Source: Vicinamibacteria bacterium (lineage in GTDB: Bacteria > Acidobacteriota > Vicinamibacteria > Marinacidobacterales > Marinacidobacteraceae). Taken from it: 64,000 bases of DNA. Below, piece after piece: positions 35,821 to 40,346 of the stretch. Every line of letters begins with the position of its first letter. Within the stretch, counting starts at the first letter, position 1. The notes under the pieces were generated by a model. The model saw nothing but the letters and a program-made list of their open reading frames with translations. It ran no database searches and was not told the origin of the DNA. The DNA lies in assembly GCA_964291235.2 (NCBI GenBank), contig OZ219816.1:1888001-1952000 (forward strand). The letters run 5' to 3'. Both the position numbers and the translations under genes were made by a program.

Positions 35821-35972
35821 CACCGGGGACGGGCCGGGGACCCTGGTCGGGAAACGTCGCGGCGGGAGCAAATGTGGTACAAGCGGGGGTCGTCCGTTCC
35901 GCCGGCCGAGGGCAGCCATCCGATCCTATCCTGCGGAAGGCGCGGCGCCGCACGGCGCCCGGAGGCTCGACC

Positions 35973-37913
35973 ATGACCCCGCCCCAGAAGATGCATCGCC
36001 CGTTCGGAGCCGGCGTCAGCCGCCGTGACTTCCTGTCCGGAGTACCGGTGGCGCTGACCGGAGCGGCGCTTGCCTGCCGCGAGGTCCCGGAGTTCCAGTC
36101 CGAGATCGACCGCGCCGGCGAGGCCAACTACCCGCCGCTCCGCACCGGGATGCGCGGGTCGCACGACGGCTCCTTCGAAGTCGGGCACCAGATGGCGCAC
36201 GAGGGACGCGAATGGCCGCCCACCGACACCGGGGAAAGCTACGACCTCGTGGTGGTGGGTGCCGGGATCTCCGGACTCTCCGCCGCCCACTACTTTCGTA
36301 AGCAGGCTGGCCCGGACGCCCGCATCCTGCTCCTCGACAACCACGACGACTTCGGCGGCCACGCCAAGCGCAACGAATTCCGGCTCGACGGCCGGACCTA
36401 CCTGATGAATGGCGGGACTCTGAACGTGGAGGCGCCGTCCCAGTACGGGGAGATCGCCGAAGGCCTGCTCAAGGAGATCGGGATCGACCGAACGCGCTAC
36501 TACGAGAGCATCAGCGCCGTCTCCGACACCTATGGAAGCCTGGGCCTCCAGCGGGCCATGTTCTTCGACCGCGAGACCTTCGGGGCGGACCAACTGGTCG
36601 CCGGGATCGGCAGGCGGCCGCTCGGGGAGTTCCTCGCCGACTCCCCGATGCCCGAGGCGGTGCGGAACGACCTGATCCGGCTGCACGCGGACGACCAGCC
36701 GGACTATCTCCCGGACCTCTCACCGGAGGAAAAGAAGGCGTACCTGGCCACCATCAGTTACAAGGACTTCCTGATCGAGCACGCCAAGTGCGATCCGGGG
36801 GTGGTCTGGTTCTTCGACCATCGGCCGAAGGGTCTCTTCTGCACCGGGATCGACGCCTACCCGGCGCGCTACGCCTGGGAGGAGGGTTTGCCGGGATTCT
36901 CGGGAATGGAGATTCCCCAGACGCCGCCGGATGTCCTCGCCGACGAGCCGGGCGGTCAGCACGGGCGGGAAAACCAGGCCCGGGCCGAAAAGGGCGATCC
37001 CGATCTCTACTTCCCGGACGGCAACGCCACGATCACCCGGTTGCTCGTCCGCGGGCTCATTCCGAGCGCCATCCCCGGCTCGACCATGGAAGACGTGGTC
37101 ATGGCGCCGCTGGACTACGGGATGCTGGACCAGGCCGGCAATTCGACCCGGATTCGGCTCTCCTCGACCGTGATCCGCGTCGAACCGGGCGAGGCCGGCC
37201 CGGCCCGCATCACGTACGTGCACGGCGACCAGGGGCACACGGTCGCCGCCGGGCGCGTCGTCCTGGCCTGCTGGCACAACATCATTCCCTACCTCGTTCC
37301 CGAACTGCCGAAGGCGCAGCGGGACGCCCTGTCGTGGCCGGTCAAGTCGCCGCTGCAGTACACGAGCGTCCTGCTCCGCAACTGGCGGGCATTCACCGAG
37401 GCGGGCGTCTCTTCGATTGCCGCGCCTGGCGGGTACCACACCTCGATCGGGCTGGCCCCTCAGCTGGCGCTCGGCGACTACCGCACCTCCACCTCTCCTG
37501 ACGAGCCGCTGGTAGTGCGGATGAACCGCTATCCCTGCGAGCCCGGGCTCTCGCGCCGGGAGCAGCACCAGATCGGCCGGATGGAACTCCTCCACACCAC
37601 CTTCGAAACGGTGGAGGCGAATATCCGCGACCAGCTCAACCGGATGCTCGGCCGGAGCGGCTTCGACGACCAGCGCGACATCGCCGCGATCACGGTCAAC
37701 CGCTGGCCGCACGGCTACACGTATTCCTACAACCCGATGTTCGATCCCCCGGAATGGGCTTTCGAGGCCGGCGACGACCGCCCGCACGTCTCCGCCCGGC
37801 AACCGTTCGGACGAATCGCCATCGCGGGCACCGACTCCGCCGGCAGCCCGCATAGCGACGCGGCGATCCGGGAGGCGCACCGGGCGGTCGGAGAGATCCT
37901 CGCCGCGGACTGA
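35973..37913 (+). CDS. Tat-exported FAD-dependent oxidoreductase, spermidine dehydrogenase-like
   Basis: SRRDFL Tat motif; YPP..TGMRGSH, VVVGAGISG, NHDDFGGHAKRNEF, FPDGNA, ITVNRWPHGY. Confidence 0.85.
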   Translation: MTPPQKMHRPFGAGVSRRDFLSGVPVALTGAALACREVPEFQSEIDRAGEANYPPLRTGMRGSHDGSFEVGHQMAHEGREWPPTDTGESYDLVVVGAGISGLSAAHYFRKQAGPDARILLLDNHDDFGGHAKRNEFRLDGRTYLMNGGTLNVEAPSQYGEIAEGLLKEIGIDRTRYYESISAVSDTYGSLGLQRAMFFDRETFGADQLVAGIGRRPLGEFLADSPMPEAVRNDLIRLHADDQPDYLPDLSPEEKKAYLATISYKDFLIEHAKCDPGVVWFFDHRPKGLFCTGIDAYPARYAWEEGLPGFSGMEIPQTPPDVLADEPGGQHGRENQARAEKGDPDLYFPDGNATITRLLVRGLIPSAIPGSTMEDVVMAPLDYGMLDQAGNSTRIRLSSTVIRVEPGEAGPARITYVHGDQGHTVAAGRVVLACWHNIIPYLVPELPKAQRDALSWPVKSPLQYTSVLLRNWRAFTEAGVSSIAAPGGYHTSIGLAPQLALGDYRTSTSPDEPLVVRMNRYPCEPGLSRREQHQIGRMELLHTTFETVEANIRDQLNRMLGRSGFDDQRDIAAITVNRWPHGYTYSYNPMFDPPEWAFEAGDDRPHVSARQPFGRIAIAGTDSAGSPHSDAAIREAHRAVGEILAAD

Positions 37914-37932: not shown

Positions 37933-38262
37933 GTGGAAAGTGACCTGATCCTCTACGGCGTTCCGTTACTTGTCCTGGTGGTGTCCGCTCCGATGACCCT
38001 GGGCATCGTCCCCCCCAACCGGATCTACGGTTTCCGGACGGAAGAGACCCTCTCATCTCCGGAGGTCTGGTATCCGGCCAATCGGGCGTGTGGGTGGTTC
38101 ATGGTTGCCGCCGCGGCCGTCTCCGTCTGCTTCAACCTGGCCTTGTCGTCGGCCTTTCCGGAATGGCCGCTGGAACGGCTGAGGCCGTGGATGGTGGGCG
38201 GAAACGTCGTACCGCTGCTGGCGGGAGCCGCCGCGTCCTACGTTTACCTCCGCCGGCTCTGA
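37933..38262 (+). CDS. SdpI family membrane protein
   Basis: PPNRIYGFRT..TLS...WY.ANR motif; 3 TM segments. Confidence 0.8.
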   Translation: MESDLILYGVPLLVLVVSAPMTLGIVPPNRIYGFRTEETLSSPEVWYPANRACGWFMVAAAAVSVCFNLALSSAFPEWPLERLRPWMVGGNVVPLLAGAAASYVYLRRL

Positions 38263-38309
38263 GGAAACGACCCAAGGACCGTACCGCCGACGGATGGACA
38301 CCTGCTGAC

Positions 38310-38984
38310 GTGACGTTCGAGGCCCGGGTGAGGACCGCCATCCTGGGGGTCTTCGCCGAGACCGGGGTCGCACCGGCCCCAGACGGGATCGCCGAGCGGC
38401 TGGGATCGGACGTCGCCGCCGTCCGGGCGGCCTGGGGCCGCCTCCGGGAGGGCCGCGCCATCGTCACCGGCAAGGATGGGGTCTCCATCCGGATGGCGAA
38501 CCCCTTCTCCGGGATTCCCACCGAGCACACCTTCGAATCGGGGGGCGTCCGCTACTACGCGAACTGCGCGTGGGACGCCCTCGGCATCCCAGCGGCGCTC
38601 GGCCTGGGAGGGACCGTCTCGTCGCGCTGCGCGAACTCCGGAGAACCGCTGTGGCTCGAAGTTACGGACGACGGTCCGGGCCCCTGCGGCTGGTTCTTCC
38701 ACTCGCTGGTGCCGGCGGCCCACTGGTGGGACGACATCGTCTTCACTTGAGCGAACATGCTGTTCTTCCGGTCGGAAGACGACCTCCGGGCCTGGTGCGG
38801 CGAGCGCGGCGTGGAGCCGGGACCGAGGGTGCCGGTGCCCCAGCTCTGGAACCTTTCGAAGGTCTGGTACGGAGACCGGCTCGACCCCGAGGCGCCCCGC
38901 CCCACACCCGTAGAGGCCCGCGCTATCTTCGCGGGCGTGGGACTGACCGGCGCCTTCTGGGACCCGGTTTCCCGTCAGGAGTAA
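38310..38984 (+). CDS. MerB (organomercurial lyase)-like protein, probable selenoprotein (UGA at 38748-38750 read as Sec)
   Basis: N-terminal HTH, MANPFS, YANCAWDAL (catalytic Cys/Asp), SRC, then WDDIVFT-TGA-ANMLFFRSE in frame; joins track ORFs 38088-38750 and 38757-38984. Confidence 0.85.
38762..38780 (+). promoter_or_regulatory. Putative bacterial SECIS element
   Basis: G(T)TCTTCC-GGTC-GGAAGAC hairpin with a bulged U and G-containing loop, starting 11 nt after the UGA. Confidence 0.75.
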
Positions 38985-38987
38985 GCC

Positions 38988-40346
38988 ATGACCGACAAGC
39001 GGACCGACAAGCGATCCGGGTTGACCCGAAGGCAACTGCTGGCTGCCGGCGCGGGCGCCGCCGCCGCCGGCCCCGCGCTCGCGGGCGTTCAGGCGGCGGC
39101 AGCGAGTCTGCTAACCGCGCCCGGGATCCCGAACGTCCGCATCGGGTTCGTGGGAGTCGGCGGCATGGGCACCGTCCACGTCCGGAACCTGCTCGCGGTG
39201 GGGAAGGCGTCCCCCGGGGTGGAGATCCGGGCGGTCTGCGACGTCCGGCCCGAGCACGCCGAGCGGGCTCGGGACTTCGTGCGAGAGGCCGGGGGCCCCG
39301 ACCCGACGCTCTACACCCGGGGAGAACGGGACTACGAGCGGATGTGCGCCGAGGAGGACCTCGACCTCGTCTTCACCGCCACTCCCTGGCGCTTCCACGT
39401 CCCGGTATGCGTCGCCGCCATGGAACACGGCAAGCACGCCGCCACCGAGGTGCCGGCCGCCACCACCCTCGACGAATGCTGGCAACTCGTGGAGACCGCG
39501 GAGCGGACCGGCCGCCATTGCGTGATGATGGAGAACTGCAACTACGGCCGGTGGGAGATGATGGTGTTCCACCTGGTCCGGCTGGGGATGTTCGGCGAAG
39601 TGCTCCACGCCGAAGGCGGCTATCTCCACGACCTCCGCGAGGTGAAGTTCGCAAACCGCGGGGAGGGTCTTTGGCGGCGCGCCCACTCCCGTACGCGGGA
39701 CGCGAACCTCTACCCGACACACGGCCTCGGCCCGGTGGCGAACTGCATGGACATCGGCCGCGGCGACCGATTCGACTACCTGGTCTCGATGAGCGGCCCG
39801 TCGCGCGGGCTACAGGACTACGCGCGGGAGCACTTCCCCGAGGGAGCGCCGCAGCGGGCCGAGGAGTTCCGGCTCGGCGACGTGAACCTGAGCCTGATCA
39901 AGACGGCCCGGGGCCGGACGATCACCGTGGTCCACGACACGAACCTGCCCCGGCCGTACAGCCGGATCAACCTGGTCCAGGGCACCCGAGGCATCTTCCA
40001 GGGCTACCCGAACCGGGTGTACGTCGAGGGTAAGAGCGAGTCGCACCGCTGGGACGACGCCGAGACCTGGCGCGCGGAATACGAGCACCCGCTCTGGCGA
40101 AACGTCGCGAGCCCCGGCGAGGAACTCGGGCACGGGCGGATGGACTACCTCGAGGACTACCGGCTGATCCGTTGCCTCCAGGAGGGGTTGCCCACCGAGA
40201 TGAACGTCTATGACGCGGCGGCGCTCTCGGCGGTCACCGACCTGAGCGAGCGGTCCGTGGCGGACCGGAGCCGGCCGATGGACTTCCCGGACTTCACCCG
40301 GGGCGGGTGGAAGACGTTCCCGAAGCTTCCGGTGGTCACGAACTAA
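38988..40346 (+). CDS. Gfo/Idh/MocA oxidoreductase, GH109 (alpha-N-acetylgalactosaminidase)-like, Tat-exported
   Basis: TRRQLL Tat motif; ATPW..H, EVPAA, MMENCNY, YPTHGLGP, HG.MDY. Confidence 0.88.
   Translation: MTDKRTDKRSGLTRRQLLAAGAGAAAAGPALAGVQAAAASLLTAPGIPNVRIGFVGVGGMGTVHVRNLLAVGKASPGVEIRAVCDVRPEHAERARDFVREAGGPDPTLYTRGERDYERMCAEEDLDLVFTATPWRFHVPVCVAAMEHGKHAATEVPAATTLDECWQLVETAERTGRHCVMMENCNYGRWEMMVFHLVRLGMFGEVLHAEGGYLHDLREVKFANRGEGLWRRAHSRTRDANLYPTHGLGPVANCMDIGRGDRFDYLVSMSGPSRGLQDYAREHFPEGAPQRAEEFRLGDVNLSLIKTARGRTITVVHDTNLPRPYSRINLVQGTRGIFQGYPNRVYVEGKSESHRWDDAETWRAEYEHPLWRNVASPGEELGHGRMDYLEDYRLIRCLQEGLPTEMNVYDAAALSAVTDLSERSVADRSRPMDFPDFTRGGWKTFPKLPVVTN

What the first reader, a model, noticed from the sequence alone, without database searches (positions are those of the whole stretch)
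38310..38984. Hidden selenoprotein: MerB-like lyase with in-frame UGA at the catalytic Cys and a SECIS-like hairpin
Seen: two track ORFs are in the same frame, separated only by TGA GCG AAC, and read ...YANCAWDAL...SRC...WWDDIVFT-U-ANMLFFRSE. Exactly 11 nt after the TGA is the hairpin G(U)UCUUCC-GGUC-GGAAGAC. Established: MerB uses Cys96, Asp99 and Cys159, and the E. coli fdhF SECIS has a bulged U and a GGUC-containing loop about 11 nt after UGA. Inference: the TGA encodes Sec at the Cys159-equivalent position. No merA, merR or merT lies in this window, so the substrate may not be organomercury and the protein may do other organometal(loid) chemistry. Sec-containing MerB-like proteins have been proposed before, but this gene would be mis-annotated as two fragments and its function is open.
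Basis: partly seen in the sequence, partly recalled or inferred. Interest (0 to 1): 0.88.

Follow-up and report, generated by a model that had tools for sequence, protein, structure and literature searches.

The report
Unannotated selenocysteine MerB-like lyase family
The two short reading frames are one gene for a relative of the mercury-carbon bond-cleaving enzyme MerB that carries selenocysteine at a catalytic position, and it belongs to a widespread family that databases hold only as truncated fragments.

Summary
Observation confirmed, interpretation supported. Window 38310-38984 (+) is one 224-codon frame with a single in-frame TGA (38748-38750). Pfam MerB matches end to end across it. 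The TGA sits in the MerB Cys159 column; Cys96 and Asp99 equivalents are kept.

It is not an error or a recent mutation. The column is TGA in 28 of 30 loci from the same phylum and TGC (Cys) in the other 2. It is TGA in 80 of 80 best loci carrying some ten different phylum- or class-level names. Codons downstream are under purifying selection.

The hairpin NNCUUCC-GGUC-GGAAGNN covaries and its synonymous sites are frozen; both Cys loci lack it. selA, selB, selD and tRNA-Sec are present.

It is neither canonical MerB nor the described selenoprotein SaoL: it scores far below both NCBIfam cut-offs, has T-U rather than C-U, and has no conserved neighbours. Only 1 of 32 carrier genomes has MerA.

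Selenoprotein status is very likely. Substrate and chemistry are inferred only. I file it as a new variant of a known kind.

The parts
38310..38984 (+). Whole gene: 224 codons plus TAA stop (38982-38984), GTG start at 38310, one in-frame UGA
   Evidence: The start is supported by homologue N-termini (P0002 begins MTFATRV...). The next gene's ATG is at 38988.
38310..38498 (+). N-terminal three-helix plus hairpin domain (residues 1-63), winged-helix-like
   Evidence: AF2 secondary structure H3-18, H24-31, H35-47, E60-63. Only weak local Foldseek matches to DtxR and LexA N-domains, E 0.05-0.6.
38505..38873 (+). Pfam MerB (PF03243) domain, residues 66-188, spanning the UGA
   Evidence: 91.4 bits against cut-off 27, profile positions 1-126 of 126.
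38565..38567 (+). Cys86 codon (TGC), in the MerB Cys96 column
   Evidence: Alignment to 3f2g and 3fn8. Invariant in A2. Cys in 80 of 80 loci.
38574..38576 (+). Asp89 codon (GAC), in the MerB Asp99 column (the proton donor in MerB)
   Evidence: Asp in 27 of 27 TGA-form rows and 80 of 80 loci. Cys in both Cys-form phylum loci.
38628..38630 (+). Cys107 codon, in the MerB Cys117 column; not conserved in the family
38748..38750 (+). UGA read as selenocysteine 147, in the MerB Cys159 column
38762..38780 (+). SECIS hairpin G(U)UCUUCC-GGUC-GGAAGAC; the loop starts 19 nt after the UGA
   Evidence: covariation; frozen synonymous sites; core present in 79 of 80 loci; literature.
38770..38784 (+). Competing hairpin GGUCG-GAAGA-CGACC, predicted more stable than the SECIS hairpin in this sequence

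Best explanation
One gene encodes a 224-residue cytoplasmic protein of the MerB fold in which the second metal-binding catalytic residue (MerB Cys159) is selenocysteine. UGA 38748-38750 is recoded by SelB and Sec-tRNA(Sec), guided by a short in-frame hairpin with a GGUC loop that begins 19 nt downstream. That hairpin also fixes the peptide F-R-S-E. By analogy with MerB, Cys86 and Sec147 would bind the metal(loid) of an organometal(loid) compound and Asp89 would protonate the leaving carbon. It is a stand-alone gene with no mer operon or other fixed partner, so it is not the first step of a MerB-MerA pathway. Shown here: single gene, Sec column, SECIS, Sec machinery, MerB fold, conserved triad columns, solo context. 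Inferred only: Se incorporation itself, lyase chemistry, substrate. The confidence below is for 'genuine MerB-fold selenoprotein'. I put carbon-metal(loid) lyase chemistry at about 0.45 and mercury as the natural metal at about 0.2.
For: The Pfam MerB match is full length across the UGA. PDB alignment puts C86, D89, C107 and U147 on MerB C96, D99, C117 and C159. The AF2 model has pLDDT 95.7 and pTM 0.92. All 11 Foldseek PDB hits at E<=1e-3 are MerB or MerB2, TMq 0.50-0.65. The column is TGA in 28 of 30 phylum loci down to 36% identity and TGC in the other 2; 2 of the 28 come from unpublished genomes G152 and G024. It is TGA in 80 of 80 best loci from named species genomes. Of the best 150 cluster representatives, 69 stop exactly there and 55 read Cys. 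dN/dS downstream of the UGA is 0.12-0.20, against 0.19-0.24 upstream, versus 7 close relatives. Hairpin: 86% of cells paired; 5 of 8 pairs carry double changes; 0 of 500 shuffles reach the covariation score; slid controls give 46-59% paired. Codons TTC 28/28, CGG 27/28 and TCG 26/26, whereas the top codon at other conserved columns reaches 38-88%. Both Cys loci lack the hairpin. Own genome: selA 498 bits, selB 311, selD 249.5, tRNA-Sec 69.7 bits with anticodon TCA. A selA match is present in 32 of 32 carrier genomes, against 299 of 401 overall. The upstream neighbour ORF ends in TGA (38260-38262), so TGA is a stop in this genome. Solo context: no neighbour family is shared beyond close kin in 21 and in 80 loci. 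MerA is over cut-off in 1 of 32 carriers.
Against: No direct evidence of selenium incorporation or of any enzyme activity. No RNA run was available. In the window's own sequence the SECIS hairpin is not the predicted minimum-energy fold. Selenolate binds Hg(II) more tightly than thiolate (established chemistry, recalled). Without MerA to remove the product, turnover on organomercurials would be hard, as Christakis et al. note for MerB-only genomes (passage of PMC8261052). That argues against mercury as the natural substrate. The 80 loci were picked with a pattern containing NC[AI]WD and ranked by likeness to a Sec form, so '80 of 80' overstates how dominant Sec is. Active-site geometry of the model was not measured, because no coordinates were accessible.
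Confidence: 0.88

Rival explanations
1. The protein is a selenoprotein of the MerB fold but not a lyase. The Cys86/Sec147 pair would act as a redox couple (selenenylsulfide) or as a tight metal(loid) trap, chaperone or sensor, possibly using the N-terminal winged-helix-like domain.
For: Most known prokaryotic selenoproteins are redox proteins (abstract and passages of PMC13188914). About half of the Cys-form relatives have Cys-x-x-Cys in place of Cys-x-x-Asp: triads C-C-C 24 and C-D-C 24 among 55. That suits metal binding or redox better than protonolysis. There is no MerA partner. The N-domain weakly resembles DNA-binding domains.
Against: Asp at the MerB proton-donor column is kept in every Sec form examined: 27 of 27 and 80 of 80. 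The only solved structures with this fold are organomercurial lyases. MerB itself has the same N-domain without known DNA binding (recalled).
Confidence: 0.3
2. It is an ordinary organomercurial lyase (MerB, EC 4.99.1.2) of a mercury-resistance system, merely with Sec for Cys.
For: Pfam MerB domain, the Cys96, Asp99 and Cys159 columns, and the MerB fold.
Against: NCBIfam MerB models give 45.8 bits against 193 and 44.3 against 200. No MerA over cut-off (best 366 against 454) and no MerT found in the 90%-complete genome. Only 1 of 32 carrier genomes has MerA, against 21 of 369 non-carriers. No mer genes lie next to it in 21 or 80 loci.
Confidence: 0.07
3. The TGA is a true stop: two separate products (146 and 75 residues), or only the N-terminal fragment, are made.
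For: An ATG (38757) follows the TGA by two codons. Gene callers split it this way everywhere.
Against: The codon at that position is ATC, not a start, in 5 of 28 Sec loci and in L129. The break falls exactly on a catalytic column that is Cys in unbroken homologues. The downstream frame is kept open to the same C-terminus in all 80 loci, and dN/dS there is 0.12-0.20. The RNA hairpin covaries and is missing where the codon is TGC.
Confidence: 0.03
4. The TGA is a sequencing or assembly error, a recent nonsense mutation (pseudogene), or is read as Trp, Cys or Gly through another genetic code.
For: Three of the best 150 representatives, and P0059, print W at the column. I infer these come from gene calls made with a TGA=W table.
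Against: Contigs of three runs show the same letters. The TGA is conserved in 28 of 30 and 80 of 80 loci. The neighbouring gene stops at TGA. A dedicated tRNA-Sec and SelB exist.
Confidence: 0.01

Closest known systems
SaoL, the MerB-like organometallic lyase selenoprotein (NCBIfam NF040728; Haft and Gwadz, bioRxiv 10.1101/2022.07.06.499078, passages read)
   Same: Pfam MerB domain. Sec placed by its authors on the MerB Cys159 position. Seen in databases truncated at the UGA. Cys96 and Asp99 equivalents kept. Its authors also doubt that mercury is the only substrate.
   Different: This protein scores 31.3 bits against the SaoL cut-off of 140; six other family members score 0-51.5. The motif is T-U-x, not C-U. 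SaoL marks a nine-gene SAO locus with an ABC transporter and other selenoproteins in strict anaerobes, found 52 times, about 0.3% of species. Here there is no conserved neighbour. Hosts carry names such as Acidobacteriota, Chloroflexota, Verrucomicrobiota, Gemmatimonadota, Eisenbacteria and Planctomycetota.
Organomercurial lyase MerB of plasmid R831b (PDB 3f0o, 3f0p, 3f2f, 1s6l) and MerB2 (5c17)
   Same: Fold (Foldseek E 2e-11 to 5e-8). Catalytic columns Cys96, Asp99 and Cys159, plus Cys117 in the window's protein.
   Different: 22-27% identity in the Foldseek alignments. Far below the NCBIfam MerB cut-offs. Sec in place of Cys159, and Ala in place of Cys160. A conserved C-terminal extension to ...FWDP. 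No mer operon and no MerA.
[quoted passage not shown] 2021 (PMC8261052, passages read)
   Same: MerB homologues that depart from the four-residue signature and often occur without MerA; function unknown.
   Different: Those variants were defined on full-length proteins that keep Cys159. Sec forms truncated at that column would fail such a screen (my inference). Their supplementary tables could not be seen.
Enterobacterial fdhF SECIS (passage of PMC4489274; spacing rule in PMC10778597)
   Same: An in-frame hairpin directly after the UGA. A GGUC apical loop. The loop starts 19 nt after the UGA here, against 18 nt in the printed Salmonella fdhF sequence, within the stated 16-37 nt. The window's copy also has a bulged U on the 5' arm.
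   Different: A shorter stem (6-8 bp). The bulged U is not conserved among relatives. No Rfam family matches.

Membership tests
Pfam MerB (PF03243) domain family | Score over the gathering cut-off across the whole domain | tested here: met
   91.4 bits against 27, profile positions 1-126 of 126.
Organomercurial lyase MerB (EC 4.99.1.2) | NCBIfam equivalog or exception model cut-off (NF009710, NF033555) | tested here: not met
   45.8 against 193 and 44.3 against 200.
Organomercurial lyase MerB (EC 4.99.1.2) | Signature residues Cys96 and Asp99 (signature as given in PMC8261052) | tested here: met
   Cys86 and Asp89 align to them. Conserved in 80 of 80 loci.
Organomercurial lyase MerB (EC 4.99.1.2) | Signature residue Cys159 | tested here: not met
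   The column holds UGA, read as Sec, not Cys. Chemically analogous, but not the defining residue.
Organomercurial lyase MerB (EC 4.99.1.2) | Signature residue Cys117 | tested here: inconclusive
   Cys107 is present in the window's protein, but the column varies among family members.
Organomercurial lyase MerB (EC 4.99.1.2) | Association with MerA or a mer operon | tested here: not met
   No MerA over cut-off and no MerT found in the genome at 90% completeness. 1 of 32 carriers has MerA. No mer neighbours.
Organomercurial lyase MerB (EC 4.99.1.2) | Protonolysis of Hg-C bonds | not testable with these tools
   Needs an enzyme assay.
SaoL (NF040728) | HMM score over the cut-off | tested here: not met
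   31.3 against 140.
SaoL (NF040728) | Cys-Sec (CU) dipeptide | tested here: not met
   Thr146-Sec147-Ala148. T, N or S precedes U in all 28 Sec loci.
SaoL (NF040728) | Nine-gene SAO neighbourhood | tested here: not met
   Neighbours are an FAD oxidoreductase, an SdpI-like protein, a GH109-like oxidoreductase and an amidohydrolase. No recurrent neighbours. The individual Sao family models were not searched.
Bacterial selenoproteins | In-frame UGA aligned with Cys in homologues, with homology continuing downstream | tested here: met
Bacterial selenoproteins | SECIS hairpin with its apical loop 16-37 nt after the UGA (rule from PMC10778597) | tested here: met
   Loop at +19 nt, with covariation. 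Caveat: not the minimum-energy fold in the window itself.
Bacterial selenoproteins | selA, selB, selD and tRNA-Sec in the genome | tested here: met
   A selA match in 32 of 32 carrier genomes.
Bacterial selenoproteins | Selenium in the protein | not testable with these tools
   Needs 75Se labelling or mass spectrometry.

The most novel reading that the evidence does not exclude
This solo Sec-MerB-like enzyme, present in hundreds of species with soil, freshwater and marine MAG names and lacking mer operons, is a mer-independent demethylase or dealkylase of environmental organometal(loid)s such as methylmercury. Sec would give it very high affinity at trace concentrations. It could account for part of the methylmercury degradation seen where canonical merB is rare, perhaps ending in a stable Hg-Se product rather than Hg(0).
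Probability: 0.15. Interest if true: 0.85.

Novelty: new variant of a known kind. Interest (0 to 1): 0.6.

Why it matters
Selenoproteins of the MerB fold are known only as SaoL, a rare protein of strict anaerobes embedded in a large locus. The clade found here is separate and much more widespread. 575 cluster representatives match at E<=1e-10. Every database copy I saw is a fragment of about 146 residues named 'hypothetical protein'.

No NCBIfam model covers the family. The 2026 inventory of prokaryotic selenoproteins lists only SaoL under MerB. Correct annotation would add one selenoprotein to many soil and marine genomes.

It would also give surveys of mercury-cycling genes a candidate they currently discard, because the truncated product lacks the Cys159 signature. 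Finally, the nearly invariant 17-nt SECIS core across distant lineages is a convenient probe for the whole family.

Tried and rejected
- **Rfam** search of 38600-38900 at E<=10 gave only noise.
- **Whole-genome UGA-plus-hairpin scan** gave 195 hits, almost all spurious open frames of a GC-rich genome. Only three were kept after Pfam. A fourth (L082) looked like two adjacent genes and was dropped.
- **A 'second Sec' at the Cys86 column** was an alignment artefact of the partial locus L051. The second U of L031 is its real stop.
- **Neighbourhood clustering** of 21 and 80 loci found nothing beyond close-kin synteny. Distant neighbour families under 60-70 bits would be missed.
- **The Sec/Cys tree** (FastTree, 143 columns, 141 rows) is too poorly resolved to count gains and losses.
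- **Sequencing runs**: no RNA holder was listed, so nothing can be said on expression.
- **Literature**: Haft and Tolstoy 2025 (PMC12013261) is not held. The groundwater-MAG paper by Deng et al., cited in PMC13188914, was not found. Supplements are closed.
- **Model geometry**: distances between Cys86, Asp89 and Sec147 in the AF2 model could not be measured, because no coordinates were accessible.

Full report
**1. Observation**

Window 38310-38984 (+) is a single frame that opens with GTG and ends with TAA at 38982-38984. It is interrupted once, by TGA at 38748-38750. The ORF lister shows it as two same-frame pieces, 38088..38750 and 38757..38984.

Read with TGA=U, the product has 224 residues with U at position 147, inside ...WWDDIVFT-U-ANMLFFRSE.... 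Eleven bases follow the TGA. Then come G38762, a bulged U38763, UCUUCC, the loop GGUC (38770-38773), GGAAGA and C38780.

**2. It is one MerB-fold gene**

Pfam MerB (PF03243) matches residues 66-188 over its whole profile, 1-126 of 126, at E 5.6e-26. The N-terminal piece alone reaches profile positions 1-80. The C-terminal piece alone scores 21 bits, under the cut-off of 27.

Alignment to solved MerB chains places Cys86, Asp89, Cys107 and U147 on MerB Cys96, Asp99, Cys117 and Cys159. I worked out the offsets from the printed alignment.

I folded the protein with an alignment of 26 family members that excludes the unpublished genomes. The model has mean pLDDT 95.7 and pTM 0.92. Foldseek against the PDB returns 11 hits at E<=1e-3. 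All are MerB or MerB2, with TM-score 0.50-0.65 normalised to the query. The genome holds only this one MerB-domain match.

**3. The TGA is conserved, and Cys is the alternative**

- **Database proteins.** Of the 120 best proteins, 117 cover only 61-65% of the query (lengths 138-160). Those I read end in ...FT. The single full-length one, P0059, prints W at the column. Two others are shorter partials.
- **Same phylum.** In 401 genomes, 32 have a match at E<=1e-10. In the 30 loci fetched, the column is TGA in 28 and TGC in 2, at identities down to 36%. Two of the 28 (L027, L041) come from the unpublished genomes G152 and G024. Without them the count is 26 of 28.
- **Species-representative genomes.** All 80 best loci have TGA at the column, Cys at 86 and Asp at 89. 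Their record names include Acidobacteriota classes, Chloroflexota, Verrucomicrobiota, Eisenbacteria, Gemmatimonadota, Planctomycetota, Omnitrophota, Alphaproteobacteria, Bacteroidota and Ignavibacteria.
- **Bias in that set.** The 80 were selected with a pattern holding NC[AI]WD and ranked by likeness to a Sec form, so the set leans towards Sec forms.
- **A less biased view.** The best 150 of 1687 cluster representatives split as follows: 69 stop exactly after column 146, 55 read Cys, 3 read W, 5 read other residues (A, S, Y, H, Q), and 18 are partial.
- **Selection.** Against 7 close relatives, dN/dS downstream of the TGA is 0.12-0.20 over 73-77 codons. Upstream it is 0.19-0.24. The frame stays open to the same C-terminus in all 80 loci.
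- **Reads.** Contigs of three runs from three samples of one study carry the same letters over the TGA. One of these may be the source sample.

**4. The SECIS**

In 26 of the 28 TGA loci the sequence ..CUUCC-GGUC-GGAAG.. follows at the same distance. The other two carry variant loops on the same stem, and both TGC loci lack any such hairpin.

On the 28-sequence alignment A1 I tested an 8-pair helix:
- 86% of cells are paired, against 46-59% when the 3' partner is slid by 1-3 columns.
- 5 of 8 pairs show changes on both sides. Pair 23-38, for example, is UA 20, CG 4, GC 3.
- 0 of 500 shuffles reach the covariation score.

A1 includes the two unpublished loci.

Synonymous sites inside the hairpin are frozen: Phe TTC 28/28, Arg CGG 27/28, Ser TCG 26/26. 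Elsewhere in the gene, the top codon at equally conserved residues reaches only 38-88%. For example, Arg190 is CGG in 8 of 27 and Ser67 is TCG in 11 of 26.

Of the 80 named loci, 79 contain TTCCGGTCGGA. The exception, L161, has a doubly compensated stem and a GGAG loop.

The loop begins 19 nt after the UGA. A review passage gives 16-37 nt as the bacterial range. A passage on the fdhF SECIS names the GGUC loop and a bulged U as functionally important. In the Salmonella sequence printed there, the loop begins 18 nt after the UGA.

Caveat. ViennaRNA puts the hairpin in the minimum-energy fold in 25 of 28 TGA loci, but not in the window itself. There, GGUCG-GAAGA-CGACC (-8.5 kcal/mol) outcompetes it (-6.9). 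The SECIS pairs keep a probability of 0.12-0.37 when only the RNA 3' of a ribosome on the UGA is folded. I take this as a quantitative weakness, not a refutation, because SelB binding is not in the energy model.

**5. Sec machinery**

The genome (90.3% complete) has selA (498 bits against cut-off 268), selB (311 with its C-terminal part, against 242), selD (249.5 against 125) and a tRNA-Sec (69.7 bits against 47) with anticodon TCA.

Three more candidate selenoprotein genes turned up:
- a CMD/AhpD-like protein (C-H-Y-U);
- a thioredoxin-fold protein (U-P-W-C);
- an AhpC/TSA peroxiredoxin.

The first has a 7-bp hairpin with loop GGUCU starting 11 nt after its UGA.

All 32 carrier genomes in the phylum sample have a selA match at E<=1e-70, against 299 of 401 overall. 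The upstream neighbour ORF (37933..38262) ends in TGA, so TGA is an ordinary stop in this genome.

**6. What it is not**

- **Not canonical MerB.** The NCBIfam MerB models score 45.8 against 193 and 44.3 against 200.
- **Not SaoL.** The SaoL model scores 31.3 against 140. Four Cys-form and two Sec-form relatives fall equally far below all three models.
- **Different motif.** It is T-U-A, not the C-U dipeptide of SaoL.
- **No fixed neighbours.** In the window they are an FAD oxidoreductase, an SdpI-like membrane protein, a GH109-like Gfo/Idh/MocA oxidoreductase and an amidohydrolase.
- **No shared context.** Clustering ORFs of 20 relatives (+-5 kb) and of 80 named loci (+-3 kb) finds no neighbour shared beyond the 7 closest relatives.
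- **No mer system.** The genome has no MerA over cut-off (best 366 against 454) and no MerT match. In the same 401-genome sample, MerA is over cut-off in 22 genomes. Only one of them (G084) is among the 32 carriers.

**7. Mechanism**

Shown: a MerB fold; the two metal-ligand columns occupied by Cys and Sec; the proton-donor Asp invariant in Sec forms; and a solo gene.

Inferred: a carbon-metal(loid) protonolysis like that of MerB, with selenolate replacing the Cys159 thiolate.

A point against mercury as the natural substrate is the product. Hg(II) would be held by S and Se with no MerA to take it away. This concern is voiced for MerB-only genomes in PMC8261052.

A redox or metal-trap role is a serious rival. 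About half of the Cys-form relatives carry Cys instead of the Asp: triads C-C-C 24 and C-D-C 24 of 55. Sec and Cys forms are interleaved on a poorly resolved tree, with 18 changes against about 45 when labels are shuffled.

**8. Prior art**

Full-text searches I ran:
- selenoprotein + MerB
- selenocysteine + alkylmercury lyase
- organomercurial lyase + selenocysteine
- MerB-like
- selenoprotein + groundwater + metagenome-assembled genomes

 They returned only the SaoL preprint (passages) and two reviews. The tables of those reviews list one MerB-like entry each, with the same accession; the 2026 review names it SaoL, with motif CU.

That 2026 review also credits the 2008 ocean-metagenome paper for this entry. 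The main text of that paper, as held, mentions MerP but no MerB or lyase. Its supplements are closed, so an earlier sighting of this clade cannot be excluded.

Peng 2016 and deep-Sep do not mention it in their main text. Haft and Tolstoy 2025 and the Deng et al. paper could not be read.

**9. Verdict**

This is a genuine, mis-annotated selenoprotein gene. It is a new, widespread variant of the MerB-like selenoprotein kind, with unknown substrate.

Noticed in passing
G000:C1:1306925-1308700 (loci L012, L058), outside the window: The selD match (249.5 bits) and a pyridine-nucleotide-disulfide-oxidoreductase-like match lie in one 795-residue open frame. This suggests a fused oxidoreductase-SelD protein.
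   Followed up: no
L079:327-794 (-), L080:140-871 (+), L081:279-929 (+), outside the window: Three further candidate selenoprotein genes of this genome with in-frame TGA: CMD/AhpD-like (C-H-Y-U), thioredoxin-fold (U-P-W-C) and AhpC/TSA peroxiredoxin (G-G-U). The first has a GGUCU-loop hairpin starting 11 nt after its UGA.
   Followed up: partly
window 38770-38784: A competing hairpin GGUCG-GAAGA-CGACC overlaps the SECIS loop and 3' arm. It is predicted more stable than the SECIS hairpin in this genome. L084, L085 and L087 carry the same GACGACC, while L083, L086, L088 and L089 differ by a base. Whether it tunes Sec insertion is unknown.
   Followed up: partly
L050 (G248), L052 (G022) and 24 of the 55 Cys-form representatives: Where column 147 is Cys, the MerB Asp99 column is often Cys as well (N-C-A-W-C). 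This gives a Cys-x-x-Cys plus Cys triad, and perhaps a different chemistry from the Sec forms, which always keep Asp.
   Followed up: partly
L034, L036, L038, L039, L043, L044 (alignment columns near residue 107): One sub-clade carries an extra C-G-C-C motif, and others C-x-D-C, at the MerB Cys117 column. This may be an additional metal site.
   Followed up: no
G084:C181:19745-20413 and G084:C200:27056-27715; L072:3-920: One genome has two copies, each with the TGA. G084 is also the only carrier with MerA over cut-off. Another genome (G168) has a second MerB-like ORF about 4 kb upstream of the first.
   Followed up: no
P0059, P0134, P0172, P0203: Database proteins that print W at the Sec column (for example ...VFTWSTMLFFRSE). 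These probably come from gene calls made with a TGA=W table on short contigs. The DNA could not be fetched.
   Followed up: no
window 38988-40346 and 35874-37913: Both flanking enzymes carry twin-arginine-like N-termini: the GH109-like Gfo/Idh/MocA oxidoreductase has ...RRQLLAAGAGAAAAG..., and the 679-residue FAD oxidoreductase has ...SRRDFLSG.... They are syntenic only in the 7 closest relatives.
   Followed up: no
literature (PMC13188914 against PMC2398784): The 2026 review credits the 2008 ocean-metagenome study for the MerB-like selenoprotein. The held main text of that study does not mention MerB. The citation may refer to a supplement or be imprecise.
   Followed up: partly
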